Shown here piece by piece: positions 28,966 to 58,230 of a stretch of 64,000 nucleotides of DNA. The position numbers and the translations under genes were made by a program. A model generated the notes under the pieces. The model did no database searches. It worked only from the letters and a program-made list of their open reading frames with translations, and had not been told where the DNA came from. Source of the DNA: the human T2T-CHM13v2.0 reference genome, Homo sapiens; the NCBI RefSeq assembly GCF_009914755.1, contig NC_060933.1; one strand, given 5' to 3'. Position 1 is the stretch's first letter; every line of letters starts with the position of its first letter.

Positions 28966-29021
<56 letters not shown>

Positions 29022-29033
29022 CCCTATCTATCA
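28950..29033. repeat. (TATC)n tetranucleotide STR
   Basis: About 13 consecutive TATC/ATCT units plus degenerate flanks. Confidence 0.95.
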
Positions 29034-30607
29034 TCTTCCTGTCAACCTTAAAAAGGTTTTGAGACAATGTAAAATAAATGCACAGGTATATACTGAAGCC
29101 ATTAACACAAAGTAAAAGGTAGGAGTCAAGATATAAAAGTAGAGAGTAAAGTGAATGTATTAAGAAATCCTGTCTGATAACAGTTTTAATAGTTAAGCAT
29201 AACATGTATATTTATGAGCTTCCTGGTAACCAGGGAAAAGAAGCAGATACATTGGATTGCATAACTCTCTTTGGTCATAAAAAGCAGATGAGCTTAAAAG
29301 GAGAAATGGATATATTGCTGGTTATATTAGCGCTTTGAGATATGCAACATATTCCAAAATACCAGATGAATGTAATCTATGAATTTAAAGCATGCCATTG
29401 CAATGAATTAGGATAATGGCAGATTTTACCAAGTGGAAATACTGAAACTTTTTTTTAATGTAGTTTTATGATTTTTAGTGATGCAGGACTAATGATAAAC
29501 TAATACTAGGGAAGTAGGAGATTCAAGGAAATAAAAAATAAAAAAGAACATCACTTTTCTGGCTTCTGGGGGCTTCCAGTATAGCTGAATGGCTAGAAAA
29601 CTCTATTAGTTACATGGTCCTTAATAACTCCATTGTCATTCAAAGAAGAGAGATGAGTCTGCATTCTTTGCAAAGCTGGGGAAAGTCCTTCTATATCGAT
29701 TAATAATGGATAAAGGAAGAGACATCCATTGGGTATTTGAGAGCTTAATATGTGCTAGGTGCTGCCCATGTAACAATGAGCAAGTCAAACATTATCTCTG
29801 CTTTCATGAAACTTACAGTAAGGTGGGTAAGACAAGAAGTTAAATAAGTAATTATTATATAACCTAATTTATATTAATAACAGACAATTCATGGTGTTAT
29901 GTGTACACAGTAGGGAAATCTTAAGCTGATCTGTCATTCTCTAGGGGACTTCATTGAGGTTAACTCTTCTACCTCTACACTAGCTTGACGAGTAAGGCTC
30001 CAACCCAAACTCTTTCTAGTTCATTTCACTCCCTTCCTCTTCCAGTTTAAAATCTTTCAACATCTCCCCGTGCCTGCAAAATCCTGGTCATGTTTCCTTG
30101 GAAGGCCTCCCTGGCCTTCCCCTTAGCTTTGTTTTCAGCCTCTGATTCCACTCCCTTGACTCCAGGCACACTTCTTTATTCCAACCCCAGTGCCTGACTC
30201 CATTTTTGTGCAGGCGGCATCCTCATTGTGACATCGAAAACCCTTTCATACATCTTTCATTAAAAAAAAAAAAGTTACTGCTCATATATTGCCTCATTTC
30301 TGTGCTTCCTCCCTCAACTTCCAGTAAGAAAGAAATCCTTCTTTCCTCTGTAGGGTTTCATATTATGCTTCTACCTGCAATCAATAATGATGAGAGTACT
30401 AATTACTATTTTACCGTCACAACAACGGCCTACCTTTAGTGAGCTCATATTACGATTTTATGTGCTAAGCACATGATGCTCATAATTTCACTTAGTTTGA
30501 CAATAATCCCACTAATGCTATTATTCACATTTGGCAGATAAAGAAACTGAGACTTGGAGTGGCAAAATGGCTTTTCCAAGTTTTTACTGCTACTAATTGA
30601 CGGAGAA

Positions 30608-30941
30608 AGTAACAAAACAAAACAAAAACTTTACATATACCAACTCAGTCCCCTAAGTAGCTAGGATTGCAGGCATGTGCCACTATGCCTGGCTAATTAA
30701 AAATAAATTTTTGTAGAGTGGAAGTCTCGCTATATTGCCCAGTCTGGTCTTGAACACCTAGGCTAAAGCAATCCTCCTGCCTTGGCCTCCCAAAGTGCTA
30801 GTATTTCAAATGTAAGCCACCACACCTGGCCAGGGGTGAGCCTTTCTTATGTTGACTTGAAGTGTGAGACTCCAAGCTAGCCAAATAAATCACTGGGCTA
30901 CATCTCCAGACAAGAACAACTCTCCCTTCTTTCTTCTCAAA
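30608..30941 (+). repeat. 334-bp direct copy of 32845-33178 (includes a partial AluJ), inserted into a MIR
   Basis: Manual alignment: 5 substitutions, no indels, offset 2237. Confidence 0.96.
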
Positions 30942-32529
30942 GCATTGTTGCACAGGTCTGCCTGATTCCAGAGAAAGTTGCTGTAACCAGTATGTAATTA
31001 TATTACCTGTATTCTAGGTAGCTATGTAGGCCTCTCCCCAAATGCAGTGTAAGCACCTTGAGAATACAGCATGTGGTTTGTACATGTTCATGCCTAGCAG
31101 GCTCCTAATAAATGTTTAAACTGTACATTTACCTAGTAATTTTAAATACAAAATATCAGGAAAAACACGATTTGTTTTAAGGCTTTTTTTTTTTTTTTTT
31201 TTTTTTTTCATTTTACAGAGATCCAAAAACACAGGACCATCCCAGAAAAGAGATCTCAGCTCAGGCCTGGCTTTTTCTCTGGTTCCCTCTTGCTGACTTC
31301 CATCCTCCAAATATCTGTCTCTCCCCACTCTGCCTTTTGCCTCTAAGTGCATGTACTCACACATGTTTTCGAAACAGAAGTAGATAGAAAATGTTGCACA
31401 TAGATGTCTCAGGGGACTGGTGCCTTCTTGGAATGGTTCCTGGAACATAATTGGTGTGCAAAAAGTTTGGATGAACAAACGCTATTTCAAGAAAGAAAGA
31501 AAGAGAGAGAAAGAGAGAGATCTGAATCTGAGTACATTTTAGAAGTTCAAGATCTGAAATTTTTTGAAAAGAAGAATGGCTAATTTCTGAGTTACTCAAA
31601 CTTTTCACATGTACAATCAGTCAAGGCATCTGTCCTCTGGTTATGCTAGATTTATAGGCTTTGTTGGGGACGGAGGCAGGTACTGAAAGATCTAAAGCTT
31701 TGTTTCCTGATGTTAGCAAAATCAGGAAGTGACCTTTTCTCTTTAAAGTGGGCTTTTTCTTTTTTTTTTCAATTTCTATGAAATAGGAAGCTTGGTGGTG
31801 TTGGTTTTGAAGTAAAAATCAATGTATCTCTGCATGGATAGGGCAATTGAGTAAGCTATATCAGATTGGACAGGTACATTAGCTGTACAGTGGTGCATAT
31901 ATTCAGCTGTGAAAAGACAAGCAAAAGAGAAACAGGTGAACCACAGCATAGAGCACCAGTTCATTTTACAGTGATTTTTTTCTTTTTATACTTTTAATTA
32001 CTTCGCCTTCTTAACATTGAACTTTCAGCTGTGCAAAGAAAGGGAGGATTGGAAGACAGTAATTGCCCAAGTGTGGGTGTTTGCTTGATGCCTATGGGCA
32101 GAGGGGCCAGAGAGGGGATAGTCAATGTGGGGGATGCAAAAGGTGTTGAAAATGGAAAGACTGAGTGGAGCAAATTTCTCTGGGAAATTTGTCCTCAGTG
32201 AAGCTATAGAAGACTGAATATTTGAAGAATAGTTCAAAGAGGTGTCTAGGAAATGCAGATCTGGCTTCAACTCCCCTTCCACTTTCTTCTACTCCAAAAC
32301 AAACATCTATGAAGCCCTGCAATAAGGTAGGTGCTTGCAGCCTTTAGGGGGGCCACTCAGTCACCCCAAGTCTCAGTTGTTTCCACTGGTAGCGTGATAA
32401 TAATCATTTTCACTTTTAGAGTGGTTAAAGGATGGATATTGTGTGTTTAAAACACCTGAATCTCCTTGTATAATACATAGCGGGCACTTAATTTACATTT
32501 GTTGAAAGGATCTGAGCCTTTGCTTTCAT

Positions 32530-33068
32530 TTTTCTTTTCTTTTTTTTTTTTCTGAGGTAGGGTCTTGCTCTGTTGCCCAGACTGGAGTACAGTGGCATGA
32601 TCACTGCATGCTGCTCACTGCAGCCTTGACCTCCGGGGCTCAAGCCATCCTCCCACCTCAGTTTATCAATCAGATGTCATTTTCCTCATTAACAATGCCA
32701 TTCCACCTTTATCGGGGAATAGCTTCCAGGGAATAGTGCTATAAGGTTACTCCATAGTCATTTTCCTAAAGAGAAAGCAAAGGCATTTTATTAAAACTTG
32801 ACGTATACCTATGTCTTTATAGCAAGAAAATAAAATATAATAATAGTAACAAAACAAAACAAAAACTTTACATATACCAGCTCAGTGCCCTAAGTAGCTA
32901 GGATTGCAGGCATGTGCCACTATGCCTGGCTAATTAAAAATAAATTTTTGTAGAGTGGAAGTCTCGCTATATTGCCCAGTCTGGTCTTGAACACCTAGGC
33001 TAAAGCAATCCTCCTGCCTTGGCCTCCCAAAGTGCTAGTATTACAAATGTAAGCCACCACACCTGGCC
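32530..33068 (-). mobile_element. AluJ interrupted by a templated insert at 32658-32880
   Basis: The Alu breaks at 'cctcccacctcagt' and resumes at 'ctcagtgccctaagtagctagg'. Confidence 0.92.
32658..32880 (+). repeat. ~223-bp direct copy of 34981-35208
   Basis: Manual alignment: 8 substitutions and one AAAAC-unit indel, offset 2323. Confidence 0.96.
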
Positions 33069-33221
33069 AGGGGTGAGCCTTTCTTATGTTGACTTGAAGT
33101 GTGAGACTCCAAGCTAGCCAAATAAATCATTGGGCTACATCTCCAGACAAGAACAACTCTCCCTTCTTTCTTTTCAAATCACCCAAGACAATCTTTTCAC
33201 TTTTCTCCCATCTTCCACACT

Positions 33222-33546
33222 CCCAGTTATCCATTTGTAAGCTGTTGATTTCTTTGGGGGCATTGTCCCCATAAACTTTTTGTAAAGCATCATTGATTTC
33301 ACCATTCTTCCACTCAAGCTTCACCAAAAATTTGATGTTTGTTCTTGCTTCCATTCTAGCAGAATTCACTTCATTCTGATATGGGAGCTTTTCAAACTAT
33401 ATTTCCTTTTTAGTGCCTCAAACTAAATCTGTTTCAGACATGTTATAACAAGTTAGTATGAGTTTATTTTGGTGCAAAACATTTTTGAACTTCATGGAGT
33501 TTGTTCACAATATGCATTTTTCATAAAGTTTTTTGAAGACCTCTTG
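33222..33546 (-). mobile_element. HSMAR2 mariner 5' fragment (TIR plus start of a frameshifted transposase)
   Basis: ORF MNSARMEARTNIKFLVKLEWKNGEINDALQKVYGDNAP matches the Hsmar2 transposase N-terminus and continues as KKSTAYKWIT after a +1 frameshift. TIR 'ttttgaagacctcttg' is followed by TA. Confidence 0.9.
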
Positions 33547-34470
33547 TATTTATCTCTTTTGTTTTCACATTTTATGTATTTTCATTTCAAATAAAAAATG
33601 TGTGATTGTATTATTTTTATAATACAATGCATTATATTATGTGTTATTTTTTATAAAGAAGGTACTGGAAACAACTCATAATCCTTACCCATAGAGAAGA
33701 CTATAAGTAATATCTTGGGACCATATGGAATATATGTTATATGGTTGTTTTCATTTTTAATACATGTGGTTTCCTATTTCTCATAGGAAAATCTAGTATT
33801 TCCTTATCTAAACACCAGGCATGACTTCTCACTACCTCTTTCCAGGGAATGTGGAATATATAAAAATAAAATTAAATTTCTCCCTCTGAAGCCAGCCCAC
33901 AGAGTAGTTGACCCAGCCCTGTGTGCCCTTTTCTTTGTTCTCCAAAAAGTTGCTTTCCGGGGTAGCCCATTCTGTTCTTCACTTCAAAAGATGTTAGTAT
34001 AGCTGATGAACAGCTGGACAGAATGGGAACTGGGAGAGAATAAAGTATCAGTCTAAGGGCCTCACTGTGCCAATTTGGCAACACTATAGAAGACAATTCC
34101 TCTGCTGTCAGAGAGCTGGAACCCATGCATGGCTGGAAAAGCAGGAAGGACTCTCTTGGCCTTGAGCTTCTCCCATGAAGTCCTGCCTTTAATTTCCCTG
34201 TAGATGTTTATTGGAGGGTCCAGGCTGAGCGAAACTGGCCCAGCTCTCCTGGACTTCATGGGACCAGGGGAGCCTTGTGTTCTAGTCTACATGGATTTTC
34301 TCTTATTGTCTTTTTCTCTTGCTTTCATGTGATGGAGCTTGGTAAACATTTCTGAGGGAAGGTAATAAAGCCTAACTGTTAATACACTTAAAACATTGAG
34401 GGAAATTGTTGTCTAGGCTGTGTTGGGACTGGAGGCTATTTGATTAGCCATAGTCCTGGTTCATTCATAC

Positions 34471-34636
34471 CGCTGCCTCTCAAACTTTAACTGTGCGTAA
34501 GAGTCATGGTGAGACCTTGTTAAACTGTAGATTCTAATTTAGTAGGTCTGTAGGGGAGGAGGTTGACTGCATTTCTCACAAGTCCTGGGAAAATGCTGAT
34601 ACTCCTTCTCCAAGATGCATACTTTGAATAGCAAGG
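34471..34636. mobile_element. MER5A1
   Basis: 'ctcaaactttaactgtgcgtaagagtca..tactttgaatagcaagg'. Confidence 0.7.
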
Positions 34637-36168
34637 AAAAGTAATCAAAGTCACATGACCACAGTGGTCAATTTCACTTAGAAGAGTGTTCCAGAGGAAA
34701 CACAGCAGGCCAAGAGGGCAGCATCAAGCATATCATCTTTTTGGTGTGAGTCTTCATGGCAGTCCAAGGGCCAGGCTCCTCCTCCCACCAAAAACACAGG
34801 TGTTGTTGTTGTTGTAGAGACTACAAGATTAAGTATGGGAACCATCCTAGCTTAAAAACTCAAAGCTCCATAGGAACCAATATCTGTTATAACAGCATCC
34901 AGGTCTTGCACTATGGGAAGCTCAAATCTATGCCTTCCCTCCAGGTATTCATATTCATTCACAATTTGCCCAGTGTAGAATCAGTTTATCAATCAGATGT
35001 CATTTTCCTCATTAACAATGCCATTCCACCTTTATCAGGGAATAGCTTCCAGGGAATAGTGCTATAAAGTTACCCCATAGTCATTTTCCTACAGAGAAAG
35101 CAAAGGCATTTTATTAAAACTTGACATATACCTCTGTCTTTATAGCAAGAAAATAAAATATAATAATAATAACAAAACAAAACAAAACAAAAACTTTACA
35201 TATACCAATTTGTTTTAAGTTCATGAGCATACAAGGCCACCAGGAAGTCTACAATAACCTGTCTGCCTTGCAATTAGAGTGAGGCCATGTGGCCAGTTTG
35301 AGGCCATGGAATATGATTGTGAGTTAGGTATTTCTCTGAGCAATTTCTCAGCCAGCTAGATGGCTGCAGGCAGATGATCCAGTAAACTTTACTTAGTAAA
35401 GGATTCCAGGGAAGACTTTTGGGGATGATGAAGCCTCAAGGTGGAGGGAGAACAATAGAATGGGCAGAGAGGTGTCTGGTAAGAATTGTGTATGATATAA
35501 CTACCTTAACCCCATAATTTATTGTTTAAACCAGAATGCCTAAGAGGCAAATGGGGGGCTCTTTTATTAATAACCATAATGAATTACACTGAGACAACAG
35601 GCATAAATGGAGATTTTCCTAGCCAAACCATGACATATAAGGTCATTCTAGCTATAATCCCTGTTGTTATCATCCAAGAAATTCGTCAGTGAAAAACAAT
35701 GTGATTTATCACTGCGTTTAGGACTGTGTGTATGTGTGGGAGGGAGGGATATAATGAAGCATTGAATCTGGCTTCCAGGTAGATATGGGGCAAAATCAGA
35801 GACCGTTCATGGTGATCTATTCACATTTGAGTAGCATGAATGAGAAAATTCAGGGCTACAGAGGAGATGATGTTCCAATGTCACATCACAAGCTGATGGT
35901 TGAACCAGGCCTCAAACCCTTGATCTCTTTCTTTCTTTTTCCACTGTTCCACTCTGCCTCTTTGCATTAGTCAGGAAAATACCAGGATATGCAGCAGTGA
36001 CAAATAAGCCCTGAAATATCAGGGGCTTAATAAAAGAAAAATGTATTTCTCACTTGTTTGAAGTATAATAGGTGACAAGTAGCCCTGTTAACCTACAAGG
36101 TGGTAATGGAGGGGAAGACTGTGGAATATTGCACACGGGATATTTTTTGGGTCAGGCATGGGAATGAC

Positions 36169-36171
36169 ATA

Positions 36172-36230
<59 letters not shown>

Positions 36231-36238
36231 GTATATAT
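36169..36238. repeat. (TA)n microsatellite
   Basis: About 23 TA units. Confidence 0.95.
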
Positions 36239-36505
36239 AAAATCTTTCTCTCTCTAGCACTGCTGTCTGCATTCGATTAACCAGGACTCAGTCATGTGAC
36301 CTGCATCCAAGTACAAGTAAGGGAAATGTGCTCCTTCTGTGTGTCCAGGAAGAGGAAATAATGTGGTGGACATAAAGCGTTTTCTTTGCACACTTTTTCA
36401 GAACTATGCTTTAACAATTGTGTAAGAAACTATATAAGTAAGGTTGAAGTATCCATGAGTGCAGCAAATTGTCCCCCACCCCCACTCCCATCCATTGCAG
36501 GAGAC

Positions 36506-36722
36506 TGCATTAGTCTTCTTGGGCTGCTATAATAAAATACCTTAGACTGGGTGGCTTAAACAACAGACATTTATTTCTCACAGTTTTGGGGGCTGGGAAG
36601 TCAGAGATCAGAGTGCCAGCAGGGTCAGGTTCTGATGAGGGCCCCCTTCATGGCTTGCAGATGGCTGCCTTCTTGCTGCATCCTACATGGTGGAAAGAGA
36701 GGGAGCAAGCTCTCTGGTCTCT

Positions 36723-36770
<48 letters not shown>

Positions 36771-37225
36771 AGACGGAGTCTCGCTCTGTCGCCCAGGCTG
36801 GACTGCGGACTGCAGTGGCGCAATCTCGGCTCACTGCAAGCTCCGCTTCCCGGGTTCAACGCCATTCTCCTGCCTCAGCCTCCCCAGTAGCTGGGACTAC
36901 AGGCGCCCGCCACCGCGCCCGGCTAATTTTTTGTATTTTTAGTAGAGACGGGGTTTCACCTTGTTAGCCAGGATGGTCTCGATCTCCTGACCTCATGATC
37001 CACCCGCCTCGGCCTCCCAAAGTGCTGGGATTACAGGCGTGAGCCACCGCGCCCGGCCTCTGGTCTCTTCTTATAAGGGAACTAATGCCATCACAAGATC
37101 CTTCCCCTTATAACCTCATGTAAATCTAATTACCCCTAAAGGCCCTACCTCCAAATATCATCACATTGGAGGTTAGGGCTTCAACATATAAATTCTGGGG
37201 GGACACAAGCATTCAGTCCACAACA
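36506..37225 (-). mobile_element. MaLR solo LTR (MLT1A-like) split by a young Alu
   Basis: 'gggctgctataataaaatacc..ggcttaaacaacagacatttatttctcacagtt' ... 'ttcaacatataaattctggggggacaca..ttcagtcca'. Confidence 0.85.
36727..37058 (-). mobile_element. Full-length human-specific AluYb (Yb11 diagnostics)
   Basis: Yb 7-bp duplication GCAGTCCGCAGTCC, GGATCATGAGG, AACAAGGTG, CTACTGGGG, GGCGTTGAACC, GTCCAGCC. All CpGs intact, pure T45 run (36725-36769), 14-bp TSD TCTGGTCTCTTCTT (36713-36726, 37059-37072). Confidence 0.96.
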
Positions 37226-45100: not shown

Positions 45101-45653
45101 CAGTGGTTCTCAAAATGTGGTCCAGAGACCCTTAAGTATCCTTGAAACACTTTTAGTGAGCTCACGAGGTCAAAACTATTTTCACCGCAATACCAGCATG
45201 TTATGGTTCTTTTTCAGACTCATTCTCTCCTGTAAGTGGAGCTTTTCTGAGGTTGCATGATGTATGATATCTGCAACGGACTCAAGGAAGAAGCAGGTAT
45301 GAGAATCCAGCTGTCTCATATTAAGCCAGAGATAGAAGAGATTTACAAAACTCTAAAACCAATGTTGCTCTTAGCATTTTTTTAAATGTTATTTTTTCAT
45401 AAAAATATGTTAAACTATTTCTGTAACTCTTTACCTATTAATTTATTTTAAAATAATAATAACCCATGACTCCCACTGCAACAGGATTATTGCTGTTGTT
45501 TTAAAATAAATTAATAAGTACAGATTTTTTAAGTTTCTCAGTTTTTATTTCTAATAATATTCATAGATAAAGCCGTATGCACACAAGTTTTTTGGAGTCC
45601 TCAATTTTTAAAAGGCTACGGAGTTTTGAGACCAAAATGACTGAAAACTACTG
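45101..45653. mobile_element. Non-autonomous hAT-Charlie element
   Basis: CAGTGGTTCTCAAA...TGAAAACTACTG termini; internal 'gaggtcaaaactattttca' and 'atgagaatccagctgtct'. Confidence 0.8.
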
Positions 45654-56309: not shown

Positions 56310-58230
56310 AGGGAAATCTTTTTTTTTAAAGATCCATTTGTGTTGCTATGAAAGTAATCTAAGCCATTTCTTTGAACTCATGCCTGATATTTTATGGTAT
56401 TTTATGATGTGGCTTTACTGATTTTTACCTACTCATTCTTCCAGGCATGGTTGTCAAAGTTATTTTCCATCTCTCCCCTGACTCCCCAGCACTCGCTCCA
56501 TAAAAAGAAATATAGCAATGAACATCCCCAGGAATGTCCTCTGATAAAACTATATGAGAATTCCTTGTGTTATATACCCTGGAGAAAGACTGCTGCTGTG
56601 TGCATATGGATTGAGGCTAAATATTGACAGTTTGTCCTCTAGGATGGCTGCCTTCTGGGTGGTCCACCATGGAAATGGTGGCCATGATATTCCCCATTGC
56701 TGCTAATCTAGTTTTTTTCACACAGTTTTAGATTTTTGGCTAGTGCAAATGTCATTTTCTCTGGGTCCAAAATATCATTTGCACTTCTCTAATTGCTAAC
56801 GATTTTGAACACCTCTTCATAAACTTGTTAGCTTTTGAGGCTTTCTCATCTGTAAATTGACTGTTTATATCCTGTTACCATATTTCTATTAATATTGGGG
56901 CAGCTATCTATTTCTTCCTGATTTACAAAATTTTCTTATGTATTTTAGATATTAAGCACTTGTTGACTTTAGACCTTAAACATGTACTTTTTCAATCACT
57001 CATCTATTTGTTAACATTGTCTTCTTCAACTTTAATTATCTTCTTCATTAAACAAAAATCCTTAGTTACAATATAATCAAATTTGTCAATTTTTTATGGT
57101 TTGCGCTTTTGGAATTTTAGCTTTTGCATACCTAGGTTACAAAGACATTTTTCCATATTTTCTCCTACTAACTATAGTTTTAGCCTTCATATTTAGATTT
57201 TCAATTCTTTTAGAGTCCACCTTTTGCATGTGATGTTAGGTGGGGATTCAGATATATTTTTCTCCACATGGTAAGTGTATCAGTCAGACCTATTCAGAAA
57301 AATGCATGTCATTTTTAGTGTTTACAACAAAAGAAATTTAATGCAGGGACTTCGTTACGTGAATGATGGTAGATCTGGTGAGTTAACCAGGAGATGCTGA
57401 GGCAACCCAGACCTTAGCAACAGCAAGAAGCCACTATCACTCTTAGGCTTAATAGTAAAGAACAGGAGGAGCCAATGTTACTGGAACTTGGGACTACTTG
57501 GTAGAATTGGAATTCATGAAGGAGTTTTTGGAGGGAATGGGAATGAACAAAGGGATGCCACTGCTGCCATAAATGTCATCAAATGCATGAAAAGTAGGAG
57601 AGAGTACCCTGGATTATTTCTTCCTCTTTCTCTGCAGTCTTCTCCATTGCCTCCCGTTGGCCTCACTGGATGAAGGGCAGGTGACAAGAGAGACTAGGAA
57701 TGTAGCCTGCAGCCTGCAGCCTGCAGCCTGTGATATAAAGCAGAGGAGGGCAAGAACTGTATTTGGGGTCAAACAGGTCCAGGGTCAGCACAGTGGGCTG
57801 ATATTTCCCAACATCATCTGCTAGAAACTACTCTTTCCCATTGATGTATGGTGTCACCTTTGTTATATATTAAGCCTTCAAATGTACATGAAGTCTATTT
57901 AGAATCTATCTGTAAATATAGACTAGATTCTAAATAGACTTCATGTACATTTAAAGACTTAATATGTAGACTCTAAATTAGAGTCTATTTCTAAACTCTC
58001 TATTCTGTTTGATTTGTCTATTTATCTGTTCTCATGCCAATTCTATTTTCTTTTAATTACTATGGCTTTATAGCATGTCGTATCTAGTAGGGGAAATCCC
58101 CTTTCTTTACTCCTCTTTTTTTAAGTCGACTTAAATATTCATGGACCTTTATTCCTCTATGTAAGTTTTTAGAATATTTCCATTTTTCAGCTCTTCTGTA
58201 TCTATTATTATTTTAAAGTTTTCCTCATGG
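56310..58230 (-). mobile_element. Ancient L1M fragments interrupted by an old LTR-like segment (~57276-57790)
   Basis: Antisense L1 motifs ('gcacttctctaattgctaacgattttgaacacctcttcat', 'ctctctattctgttt'). Confidence 0.6.
57864..57987. repeat. Inverted repeat with perfect 29-bp arms (57880-57908 / 57924-57952), followed by a 10-bp-arm palindrome (57967-57987)
   Basis: AAATGTACATGAAGTCTATTTAGAATCTA and its exact reverse complement, 15-nt spacer. Confidence 0.97.

What the first reader, a model, noticed from the sequence alone, without database searches (positions are those of the whole stretch)
30608..35208. Copy-of-a-copy: two nested local templated insertions, each taken from ~2.2-2.3 kb to the right
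Seen: donor C (34981-35208) is copied in direct orientation into an AluJ as B (32658-32880; 8 substitutions, one 5-bp indel). Then 32845-33178, which spans B's new right junction, the rest of the Alu and its flank, is copied to A (30608-30941; 5 substitutions in 334 bp). A interrupts a MIR that resumes at 'caggtctgcctgattccagag'. A contains the B junction and shares B's variants (AGTA, shorter AAAAC run), so it is the later event, matching its lower divergence (~1.5% vs ~3.5%). Neither copy has a poly(A) tail or an L1-type TSD. Inference: these are two separate template-switch repair events (FoSTeS/MMBIR or polymerase-theta type) with the same polarity and almost the same jump (2323 and 2237 bp). 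That hints at a recurrent local geometry, such as a fork or loop, 8-12 kb upstream of TNFSF8. With n=2 the equal spacing may be coincidence.
Basis: partly seen in the sequence, partly recalled or inferred. Interest (0 to 1): 0.8.

Follow-up and report, generated by a model that had tools for sequence, protein, structure and literature searches.

The report
Two nested local copy-and-paste insertions
A unique 0.2-kb stretch upstream of TNFSF8 was copied into an Alu about 2 kb away, and part of that copy plus its new surroundings was later copied about 2 kb further on into a MIR; this is a clean example of a known kind of DNA repair or replication scar.

Summary
C (34981-35208) is copied as B (32658-32880) with 8 substitutions and one 5-bp indel. 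S (32845-33178) is copied as A (30608-30941) with 5 substitutions in 334 bp. C and the non-Alu flank of S occur nowhere else in the 3.1-Gb assembly, so this is not a repeat family.

B splits an Alu, and 5 bp of the target (CTCAG) are duplicated around it. A splits a MIR that is continuous to within about 4 bp. A carries B's right junction, so it was copied from a template that already held B.

The best reading is two successive DNA-templated local insertions (dispersed duplications). Each was primed with 0-4 nt of microhomology 1.9-2.1 kb downstream of the break. The insert sizes and distances do not fit polymerase theta scars, L1 retro-copies or distant RNA patches.

- The divergence difference (3.6% vs 1.5%) is not significant (p=0.15), so the order rests on structure alone.
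- I found nothing beyond n=2 for a recurrent local geometry.
- Primate orthologues and human haplotypes could not be reached, so the timing is untested.

This is a known kind of event and a tidy new instance, of modest interest.

The parts
30440..30607 (+). Left part of the MIR-like element that A interrupts
   Evidence: nhmmer with this stretch finds 11 further MIR-like stretches in 264 kb plus four loci. A genome search gives one 80% match, L010. The name MIR rests on recall of the consensus.
30608..30941 (+). Copy A (334 bp), the later insertion. It consists of 30608-30643 (the last 36 bp of B), 30644-~30836 (the right part of the Alu) and 30837-30941 (the Alu's right target duplication plus unique flank).
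   Evidence: 5 substitutions in 334 bp against 32845-33178, no indel; the flank is unique to these two places in the genome; sub-threshold Metazoa_SRP hit at 30722-30830 on the minus strand.
30942..31010 (+). Right part of the interrupted MIR-like element
   Evidence: In 4 of 6 MIR-like copies the two flanks of A abut to within -3 to +4 bases. In 2 of 6 the fragments were misplaced (-71, +28).
32513..32521 (.). Left target-site duplication (TGAGCCTTT) of the host Alu
   Evidence: Read directly. The same 9-mer is at 33074-33082.
32522..32661 (-). Host Alu: tail and 3' part, lying left of B on the + strand and ending in CTCAG
   Evidence: alignments to other Alus in 264 kb end at 32661; degenerate T run at 32529-32553.
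32658..32880 (+). Copy B, the earlier insertion. The part that is unambiguously donor-derived is 32662-32880 (219 bp). 32658-32661 (TCAG) is shared by the Alu target and the donor's left edge.
   Evidence: 8 substitutions plus a 5-bp indel against C. E 4.8e-96 in the whole-genome search.
32881..33073 (-). Host Alu: 5' part, lying right of B. It starts with the second CTCAG (32881-32885).
   Evidence: By hand extrapolation of that table, 16 of 23 paired hits to intact Alus give exactly a 5-base overlap of the two halves, 21 of 23 give 4-6 bases, and 2 of 23 are inconsistent. Metazoa_SRP sub-threshold hit at 32959-33067 on the minus strand.
33074..33082 (.). Right target-site duplication (TGAGCCTTT) of the host Alu. 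It was carried along into A at 30837-30845.
   Evidence: Read directly.
32845..33178 (+). Donor S for copy A. It spans B's last 36 bp, B's right junction, the Alu 5' part and 105 bp of unique flank.
34981..35208 (+). Donor C for copy B. It is unique sequence ending in an (AACAA)4.4 run.
   Evidence: no other full-length copy in 3.1 Gb; tandem-repeat table; no RNA family hit inside C.

Best explanation
These are two successive DNA-templated 'copy-and-paste' insertions, also called local dispersed duplications or templated insertions. They were made in the germline of an ancestor.

Event 1. A broken or stalled 3' end inside an Alu, after ...CACCTCAG, paired through the 4-nt microhomology TCAG with sequence 2.1 kb downstream on the same or the sister chromatid. 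It copied about 220 nt (C). It then returned to the Alu 5 nt behind the point of departure, so CTCAG is present twice.

Event 2. A 3' end inside a MIR primed 1.9 kb downstream, 36 bp before the end of B. It copied 334 nt across B's right junction, the rest of the Alu and 105 bp of flank. It then returned to the MIR with at most about 4 bp gained or lost.

Insert lengths of hundreds of nucleotides and a distance of about 2 kb point to processive synthesis after a template switch. Candidates are MMBIR/FoSTeS-like replication or an SDSA-like repair of a double-strand break that uses the resected neighbourhood. They do not point to polymerase theta.

Shown: the three copies, their uniqueness, the direction of copying, the junction anatomy, and that A's template already held B.
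Inferred: the enzyme pathway, that the two events were separated by millions of years, and the dates. The dates are B about 18-37 My and A about 8-15 My, using substitution rates recalled from general knowledge, with wide intervals.

The near-equal offset is most simply a coincidence within a length scale of about 2 kb.
For: - Copies and their statistics.
- Not a repeat family. C and the S flank have no other copy in the genome. The sequences between the copies have no paralogue elsewhere.
- The donors are intact and the recipients are interrupted known elements. The Alu halves overlap by 5 bp on intact Alus. The MIR is continuous to within -3 to +4 bp in 4 of 6 comparisons.
- B's right junction...ATACCA(A/G)|CTCAG..., is reproduced in A. 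At the variable base A agrees with C, so the G in B arose after A was copied.
- Microhomology is TCAG at B's left junction, 0 nt at B's right junction, and 1-3 nt possible at A's junctions (read).
- There is no poly(A) at either end of A or B.
- Rarity. These are the only pairs at >=93% identity and >=50 bp among 180 non-self HSPs in the 64-kb window. 0 of 19 non-satellite random 10-kb tiles held a local pair at >=90% and >=100 bp.
- Literature. Copy-and-paste templated insertions and local n-jumps are ascribed to template switching (PMC7025897, passages). Germline templated insertions linked to MMBIR, some built from several templates, exist in normal human genomes (PMC8421209, passages). Structural variants at meiotic breaks are enriched below about 2 kb, the extent of resection (PMC7615360, passages).
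Against: - No outgroup was available. 'Insertion' is inferred from interrupted repeats, not from an empty site.
- The divergence of the two pairs is statistically indistinguishable (8/223 vs 5/334, p=0.15). One complex event is therefore not excluded.
- The pathway cannot be read from the scar. 0-4 nt microhomology also fits end joining of a copied fragment.
- The offsets (2323 vs 2237), the polarity and the orientation agree better than a broad prior would predict. My own arithmetic gives about 1-2% for the offsets alone, and this is post hoc. 'Coincidence' is therefore not comfortable.
- The background sample is small (190 kb). It bounds the rate only at about 1 such pair per 80 kb or rarer.
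Confidence: 0.7

Rival explanations
1. One complex event. A single replication-based episode with several template switches made both B and A, with A copied from the nascent strand or sister that had just acquired B.
For: The divergences do not differ significantly. The same orientation, side and near-equal offset would follow naturally from one episode. Germline templated insertions with up to five templates are reported (PMC8421209).
Against: The two insertions are separated by 1.7 kb of undisturbed sequence (30942-32657; unique and colinear). A single strand path would need five jumps, including the identical C-end to Alu jump twice at a junction with 0 nt of microhomology. The point estimates differ 2.4-fold in the expected direction.
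Confidence: 0.12
2. Tandem duplication followed by deletion. A 2.3-kb tandem duplication, and later a 2.2-kb one, arose, and most of the first copy was then deleted. This left only its last 0.2-0.3 kb.
For: The geometry allows it. The junction C-end|Alu is what a tandem duplication of 32881-35208 would make, and TCAG could mediate the deletion (reasoned).
Against: In both cases the deletion would have to start within 0-5 bp of the left edge of the duplication. By my arithmetic that is about 5/2300 each, so of the order of 5e-6 for both. No remnant of the deleted part is present.
Confidence: 0.04
3. RNA-templated patches. Local transcripts were reverse-transcribed and used to fill double-strand breaks (class 2 templated sequence insertions), or were inserted by L1 (class 1).
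For: Class 2 events have no TSD and no poly(A), and show microhomology, as here (PMC5110952, abstract and passages). B has a 5-bp target duplication, which is the lower limit quoted for class 1.
Against: The experimentally induced insertions in that work mapped to 18 of 24 chromosomes with no chromosomal or regional preference. Here both donors lie about 2 kb away in cis. Both events lack a poly(A) tail and a TTTT/A target. Four of B's 5 duplicated bases are equally explained by donor microhomology. A copies an Alu's upstream flank together with part of the Alu on the strand opposite to the Alu, so it is not an Alu transcript.
Confidence: 0.06
4. Polymerase theta-mediated end joining made both scars, as the reader offered as one option.
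For: Templated insertions with short microhomology are its hallmark (PMC7165422). Meiotic-break variants show this signature (PMC7615360).
Against: The reported scars are 3-30 bp, and microhomology search reaches about 15 nt from the end. Here the inserts are 219 and 334 bp and the templates are 1.9-2.1 kb away.
Confidence: 0.05

Closest known systems
Templated insertions and local n-jumps of cancer genomes (PCAWG 'cycles of templated insertions'; PMC7025897, passages read)
   Same: Both are copy-and-paste events. The donor is kept, a segment is inserted elsewhere, the path returns to the host, and a little host sequence is re-replicated (here 5 bp of CTCAG). They are ascribed to template switching.
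   Different: Those events are somatic. Each event there strings several copied templates together at one locus, whereas here each event has a single template. Here two separate events are nested over evolutionary time. Both are germline-fixed, with 0.2-0.3 kb inserts and donors about 2 kb away.
Germline templated insertions linked to MMBIR (MMB-TIs; PMC8421209, passages read)
   Same: Both are germline and local, have microhomology at the junctions, and can be multi-template. They are proposed to accumulate during evolution.
   Different: The paper's basic signature is an insertion inverted relative to a nearby template, detected within short reads, although its most abundant germline class was 'direct duplications'. 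Here the copies are direct, hundreds of bp long, and 2 kb from the template.
Templated sequence insertion polymorphisms, class 2 (PMC5110952)
   Same: Both are insertions of unique genomic sequence at a break without poly(A) or a long TSD, with end-joining features.
   Different: Those are described as derived from distant regions via RNA. Here the donors are 2 kb away in cis, twice, which argues for a DNA template close in space.
Dispersed duplication (dDUP) class of population structural-variant catalogues. The class name is recalled. One example of a 'dispersed duplication deletion' shared with Neanderthals was seen in bioRxiv 10.1101/200170 (passages).
   Same: The structural class is the same: a segment is duplicated and inserted nearby, not in tandem.
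   Different: Catalogue entries are polymorphic and usually larger. Here both appear as fixed-looking old events. Their polymorphism status is untested.
[quoted passage not shown]
   Same: New duplications arise preferentially next to older ones. Here the second copy starts inside the first copy.
   Different: Those concern duplications of kilobases and more. DDSA requires the break to lie in the repeat, whereas the break of event 2 lies in a MIR 1.7 kb from B.

Membership tests
Local templated insertion / dispersed duplication | The donor sequence is retained at its original place and an extra copy is present nearby | tested here: met
   C and S are both present. The copies are 96% and 98.5% identical and are unique to this locus.
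Local templated insertion / dispersed duplication | The copy interrupts otherwise continuous target sequence | tested here: met
   The Alu halves overlap by 5 bp on intact Alus: exactly 5 bp in 16 of 23 pairs and 4-6 bp in 21 of 23 (hand extrapolation). The MIR flanks abut within -3 to +4 bp in 4 of 6 copies.
Local templated insertion / dispersed duplication | Junctions have no or short microhomology, not long homology | tested here: met
   TCAG (4 nt) at B's left junction, 0 nt at B's right junction and up to 3 nt at A's junctions. No similarity extends beyond the ends.
Local templated insertion / dispersed duplication | An empty site exists in an outgroup or in other haplotypes | not testable with these tools
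   No primate or pangenome sequence is held. No paralogous copy of the region exists in the genome to serve as an outgroup.
L1-mediated retro-copy (class 1 TSIP, processed copy) | Poly(A) tail at the 3' end of the insert | tested here: not met
   B ends ...CTTTACATATACCA and A ends ...TTCTCAAA. Both ends are present in the donors.
L1-mediated retro-copy (class 1 TSIP, processed copy) | Target-site duplication of at least 5 bp and a TTTT/A-type target | tested here: not met
   B has CTCAG (5 bp), but 4 of these bases are shared with the donor edge and the target is ACCTCAG|CC. A has 0-4 bp (AAAG), which cannot be decided. Criteria are from PMC5110952.
Polymerase theta templated insertions (TINS) | Insert of 3-30 bp copied from DNA within about 15 bp of the break | tested here: not met
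   The inserts are 219 and 334 bp and the templates lie 2100 and 1903 bp from the break. Criteria are from PMC7165422.
Interspersed repeat / transposable element family | Many dispersed copies in the genome | tested here: not met
   only the local copies. For contrast, the neighbouring 33225-33555 has 956 first-look candidates.
Tandem or segmental duplication | Adjacent head-to-tail copies, or copies of at least 1 kb at 90% or more | tested here: not met
   The copies are 223 and 334 bp long and are separated by 1.7-2.1 kb of unrelated sequence.
Duplication-dependent strand annealing | The break lies inside a pre-existing repeat, and repair uses another copy of that repeat | tested here: not met
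   The break of event 2 lies at 30607/30942 in a MIR. B lies 1.7 kb away, and only the donor, not the target, touches the B/C repeat. The model is as described in PMC3276153.

The most novel reading that the evidence does not exclude
The first insertion caused the second. Event 1 created a 223-bp direct repeat (B and C) spaced 2323 bp apart. During later repair or replication, out-of-register pairing of B with C on the sister or homologue brought every position close to the position about 2.3 kb downstream. A 3' end broken in the MIR therefore primed 2237 bp downstream, in the same orientation and on the same side. Templated insertions would then be self-propagating at the sub-kilobase scale, a miniature of duplication shadowing, and chains would show conserved offsets genome-wide.
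Probability: 0.1. Interest if true: 0.6.

Novelty: new member of a known kind. Interest (0 to 1): 0.3.

Why it matters
As a single locus it is a neutral-looking scar. No RefSeq functional element is listed in 30-36 kb, and no RNA family hit reached threshold.

Its value is as a very clean natural record of kilobase-range template switching in the germline.
- Both targets are recognisable repeats, so the junctions can be read to the base.
- The donors are unique.
- The nesting gives the order without an outgroup.

A genome-wide scan might show that chained local insertions tend to keep their offset and polarity. That would say something new about how an existing small duplication biases later repair. 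It would also explain part of the clustering of duplications at a scale below that of segmental duplications.

Tried and rejected
- Background rate. I planned 200 random 10-kb tiles, but only the first 20 were delivered. I did not ask again and used the 20 tiles. The result was 0 of 19 non-satellite tiles with a local high-identity pair, and 1 tile was a satellite. This is too small to give a rate, only a bound.
- An internal outgroup. I searched for a paralogue of the region elsewhere in the genome and found none.
- MIR continuity by whole-genome search. The left flank gave one truncated copy, L010, which stops before the break. The right flank gave only itself. BLAST within 264 kb found too little. 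nhmmer plus alignment worked for 4 of 6 copies. The automatic fragment placement by MAFFT misplaced the right flank, and the first local-alignment attempt was mostly noise.
- PRDM9-type 13-mer (motif recalled). None lies at the breaks, and the nearest is 36100-36112. Given the likely age of the events this is not informative either way.
- Base composition shows nothing special at the sites.
- Further small patches at 2.2-2.3 kb offset. None were found. The 15 other 13-mer pairs are 14 Alu-Alu or Alu target-duplication matches and one isolated chance match.
- Inverted repeats that could fold donor onto target. Only the (AT)n tract at 36.2 kb was found.
- Divergence as proof of order was rejected as not significant.
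- Papers on dispersed duplications in primates. The search with 'dispersed duplication', 'microhomology' and 'primate' gave 4 papers, none on this kind of event. I have not shown that nested local insertions are undescribed. Only searches were run, and supplements were not opened.

Full report
**1.

The repeat finder on 29000-37000 returns two direct families. One is 30608-30907 vs 32845-33144 (99%, spacing 2237). The other is 32658-32864 vs 34981-35187 (97%, spacing 2323). It also returns a three-copy 33-mer at 30611, 32848 and 35176.

Global alignments with 30-nt flanks give the following.
- B 32658-32880 vs C 34981-35208: 8 substitutions and one 5-bp gap.
- A 30608-30941 vs S 32845-33178: 5 substitutions in 334 columns and no gap.
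- In both pairs similarity collapses immediately outside these limits.

The gap is one unit of an (AACAA)n run, with 3.4 units in A and in B and 4.4 in C.

**2. It is not a repeat family and not chance**

A search of the whole 3.1-Gb assembly with C gave 6 matches. These were C itself, B (E 4.8e-96), the 33-bp piece in A, and three hits elsewhere that cover only the A-rich tail, query 170-224. The non-Alu flank 33068-33178 gave 2 of 2 matches, itself and A.

The stretches between the copies have no paralogue elsewhere.
- 30942-32520 matched only itself plus two 35-44-bp low-complexity hits.
- 33180-34980 matched itself plus copies of an unrelated 325-bp interspersed repeat at 33225-33555.

No segmental duplication therefore exists that could serve as an internal outgroup.

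**3. Direction and order**

The host Alu lies on the minus strand, shown by sub-threshold Metazoa_SRP hits at 32959-33067 and, in A, at 30722-30830. It is flanked by its own 9-bp target duplication TGAGCCTTT at 32513-21 and 33074-82 (read). S is therefore the original setting of that Alu. A holds only its right part, the right target duplication (30837-45) and the flank.

I aligned the two Alu halves separately to other Alus in 264 kb (the window plus 20 random tiles).
- The left half ends at 32661 and the right half starts at 32881.
- After extrapolating truncated alignments by hand from the table, 16 of 23 paired hits give exactly a 5-base overlap on the intact Alu.
- 21 of 23 give 4-6 bases, and 2 of 23 are inconsistent (-179, -18).

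B therefore sits in the Alu with CTCAG duplicated (32657-61 and 32881-85). The bases TCAG also precede the donor (34977-80 read AATCAG|TTTATC). So the left junction has 4 nt of microhomology. The right junction (...ACCAA|CTCAG) has none.

For A, nhmmer with the left flank found MIR-like copies. In 4 of 6 of them the two flanks of A abut to within -3, +1, +2 and +4 bases, and in 2 of 6 the short fragments were misplaced. A is thus a clean insertion. Whether AAAG (30606-09 and 30939-42) is a 4-bp target duplication or junction microhomology cannot be decided without an empty site.

A reproduces B's right junction. At 32880 B has G, while A and C have A, so that change arose in B after A was copied. 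At 32846 and in the AACAA run, A and B agree against C. Hence A was copied from a template that already carried B.

**4.

The ratios 8/223 and 5/334 do not differ significantly (Fisher p=0.15, binomial p=0.16). I used substitution rates of 1e-9 to 0.5e-9 per site per year, recalled from general knowledge. With these the point estimates are 18-37 My for B and 8-15 My for A. The Poisson intervals overlap widely. Two of the eight B/C differences are CpG/CpA sites.

The order therefore rests on the inherited junction. A long interval between the events is an inference.

**5. How rare**

Self-comparison of the window gave 180 non-self HSPs. The only pairs at 93% or more and 50 bp or more are these two. 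In 20 random 10-kb tiles of the same genome, one tile was a satellite and 0 of the other 19 held a local pair at 90% or more and 100 bp or more.

It bounds the density only at roughly one per 80 kb or rarer. Because the first stage scanned the whole genome, a handful of nested cases could arise by chance. That figure is my own order-of-magnitude reasoning, not a computation.

**6. Mechanism**

Both events share a set of features.
- They are direct in orientation.
- Their donors lie to the right of the break, by 2100 bp (32881 to 34981) and 1903 bp (30942 to 32845).
- They copy 219 and 334 nt.
- They return to the target with 5 bp and 0-4 bp re-copied.
- They show 0-4 nt of microhomology.

This is the anatomy of a templated insertion 'cycle' or local two-jump, ascribed to template switching (PMC7025897, passages). 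It also matches germline MMBIR-linked templated insertions (PMC8421209, passages).

Several alternatives do not fit.
- Polymerase theta scars are 3-30 bp and are copied from within about 15 nt of the end (PMC7165422, abstract and passages).
- L1-mediated copies need a poly(A) tail and a TTTT/A target (PMC5110952), and neither is present.
- RNA-derived patches come from distant loci without regional preference, whereas here both donors are about 2 kb away in cis.
- A two-step history of tandem duplication then deletion fits the geometry. It needs the deletion to start within 0-5 bp of the duplication edge in both cases.

A length scale of about 2 kb is also the extent of resection at meiotic breaks, below which structural variants are enriched (PMC7615360, passages). 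A donor within the resected or nearby tract is therefore a plausible reason for the distance, without any locus-specific geometry.

I commit to the following mechanism, with probability about 0.7: microhomology-primed, processive, DNA-templated synthesis after a template switch, occurring twice in succession.

**7. The equal offset**

Nothing further supports a standing local geometry.
- No additional 13-mer matches occur at 2.2-2.3 kb offsets in 26-40 kb.
- No inverted repeats link the sites.
- There is no compositional feature.
- The nearest PRDM9-type motif lies 0.9 kb beyond C.

Coincidence costs roughly 1-2% for the offset under broad priors. This is my own arithmetic and is post hoc.

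The boldest reading still open is that B and C, once they existed as a 223-bp direct repeat 2323 bp apart, guided out-of-register pairing and so biased the second jump. This echoes duplication shadowing (PMC3759715, passage). The DDSA model proper is not met, because the break is not inside the repeat (PMC3276153, passages). I give this reading about 0.1.

**8. Verdict**

The finding is a real, precisely readable, nested pair of local dispersed duplications. It is a known kind of event and a new instance.

Noticed in passing
33225-33555: An interspersed repeat about 325 bp long lies just right of donor S. It has 956 first-look candidates genome-wide, and 39 scored copies are at 79-84% identity. 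The family was not named here.
   Followed up: no
36166-36240: An (AT)n/(GT)n microsatellite of about 71 bp forms a near-perfect palindrome. It gives a weak sub-threshold mir-297 hit. Such a tract could stall forks, and it lies 1 kb right of C.
   Followed up: no
31184-31208 and 36725-36769: There are long T runs of 25 and 45 nt. The second is the tail of a minus-strand Alu with a 15-bp target duplication, CTCTGGTCTCTTCTT, at 36712 and 37058.
   Followed up: partly
57864-57968 and 45425-45527: These stretches match their own reverse complement, at 88.7% over 106 bp and 73% over 109 bp. They are near-palindromes.
   Followed up: no
window-wide; 18060, 36100, 49790, 54213, 59446: The 13-mer CCNCCNTNNCCNC occurs 5 times against 0.91 expected from shuffles. 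Two of the hits have an Alu-like ...TTGGCCTC context.
   Followed up: no
32344-32452: A second MIR-like copy lies in the opposite orientation, between A and B (E 0.035).
   Followed up: no
L020 (G000:C16:40337001-40347000): This random control tile is a satellite with a 3194-bp period and more than 99.6% identity between units. It was excluded from the background count.
   Followed up: no
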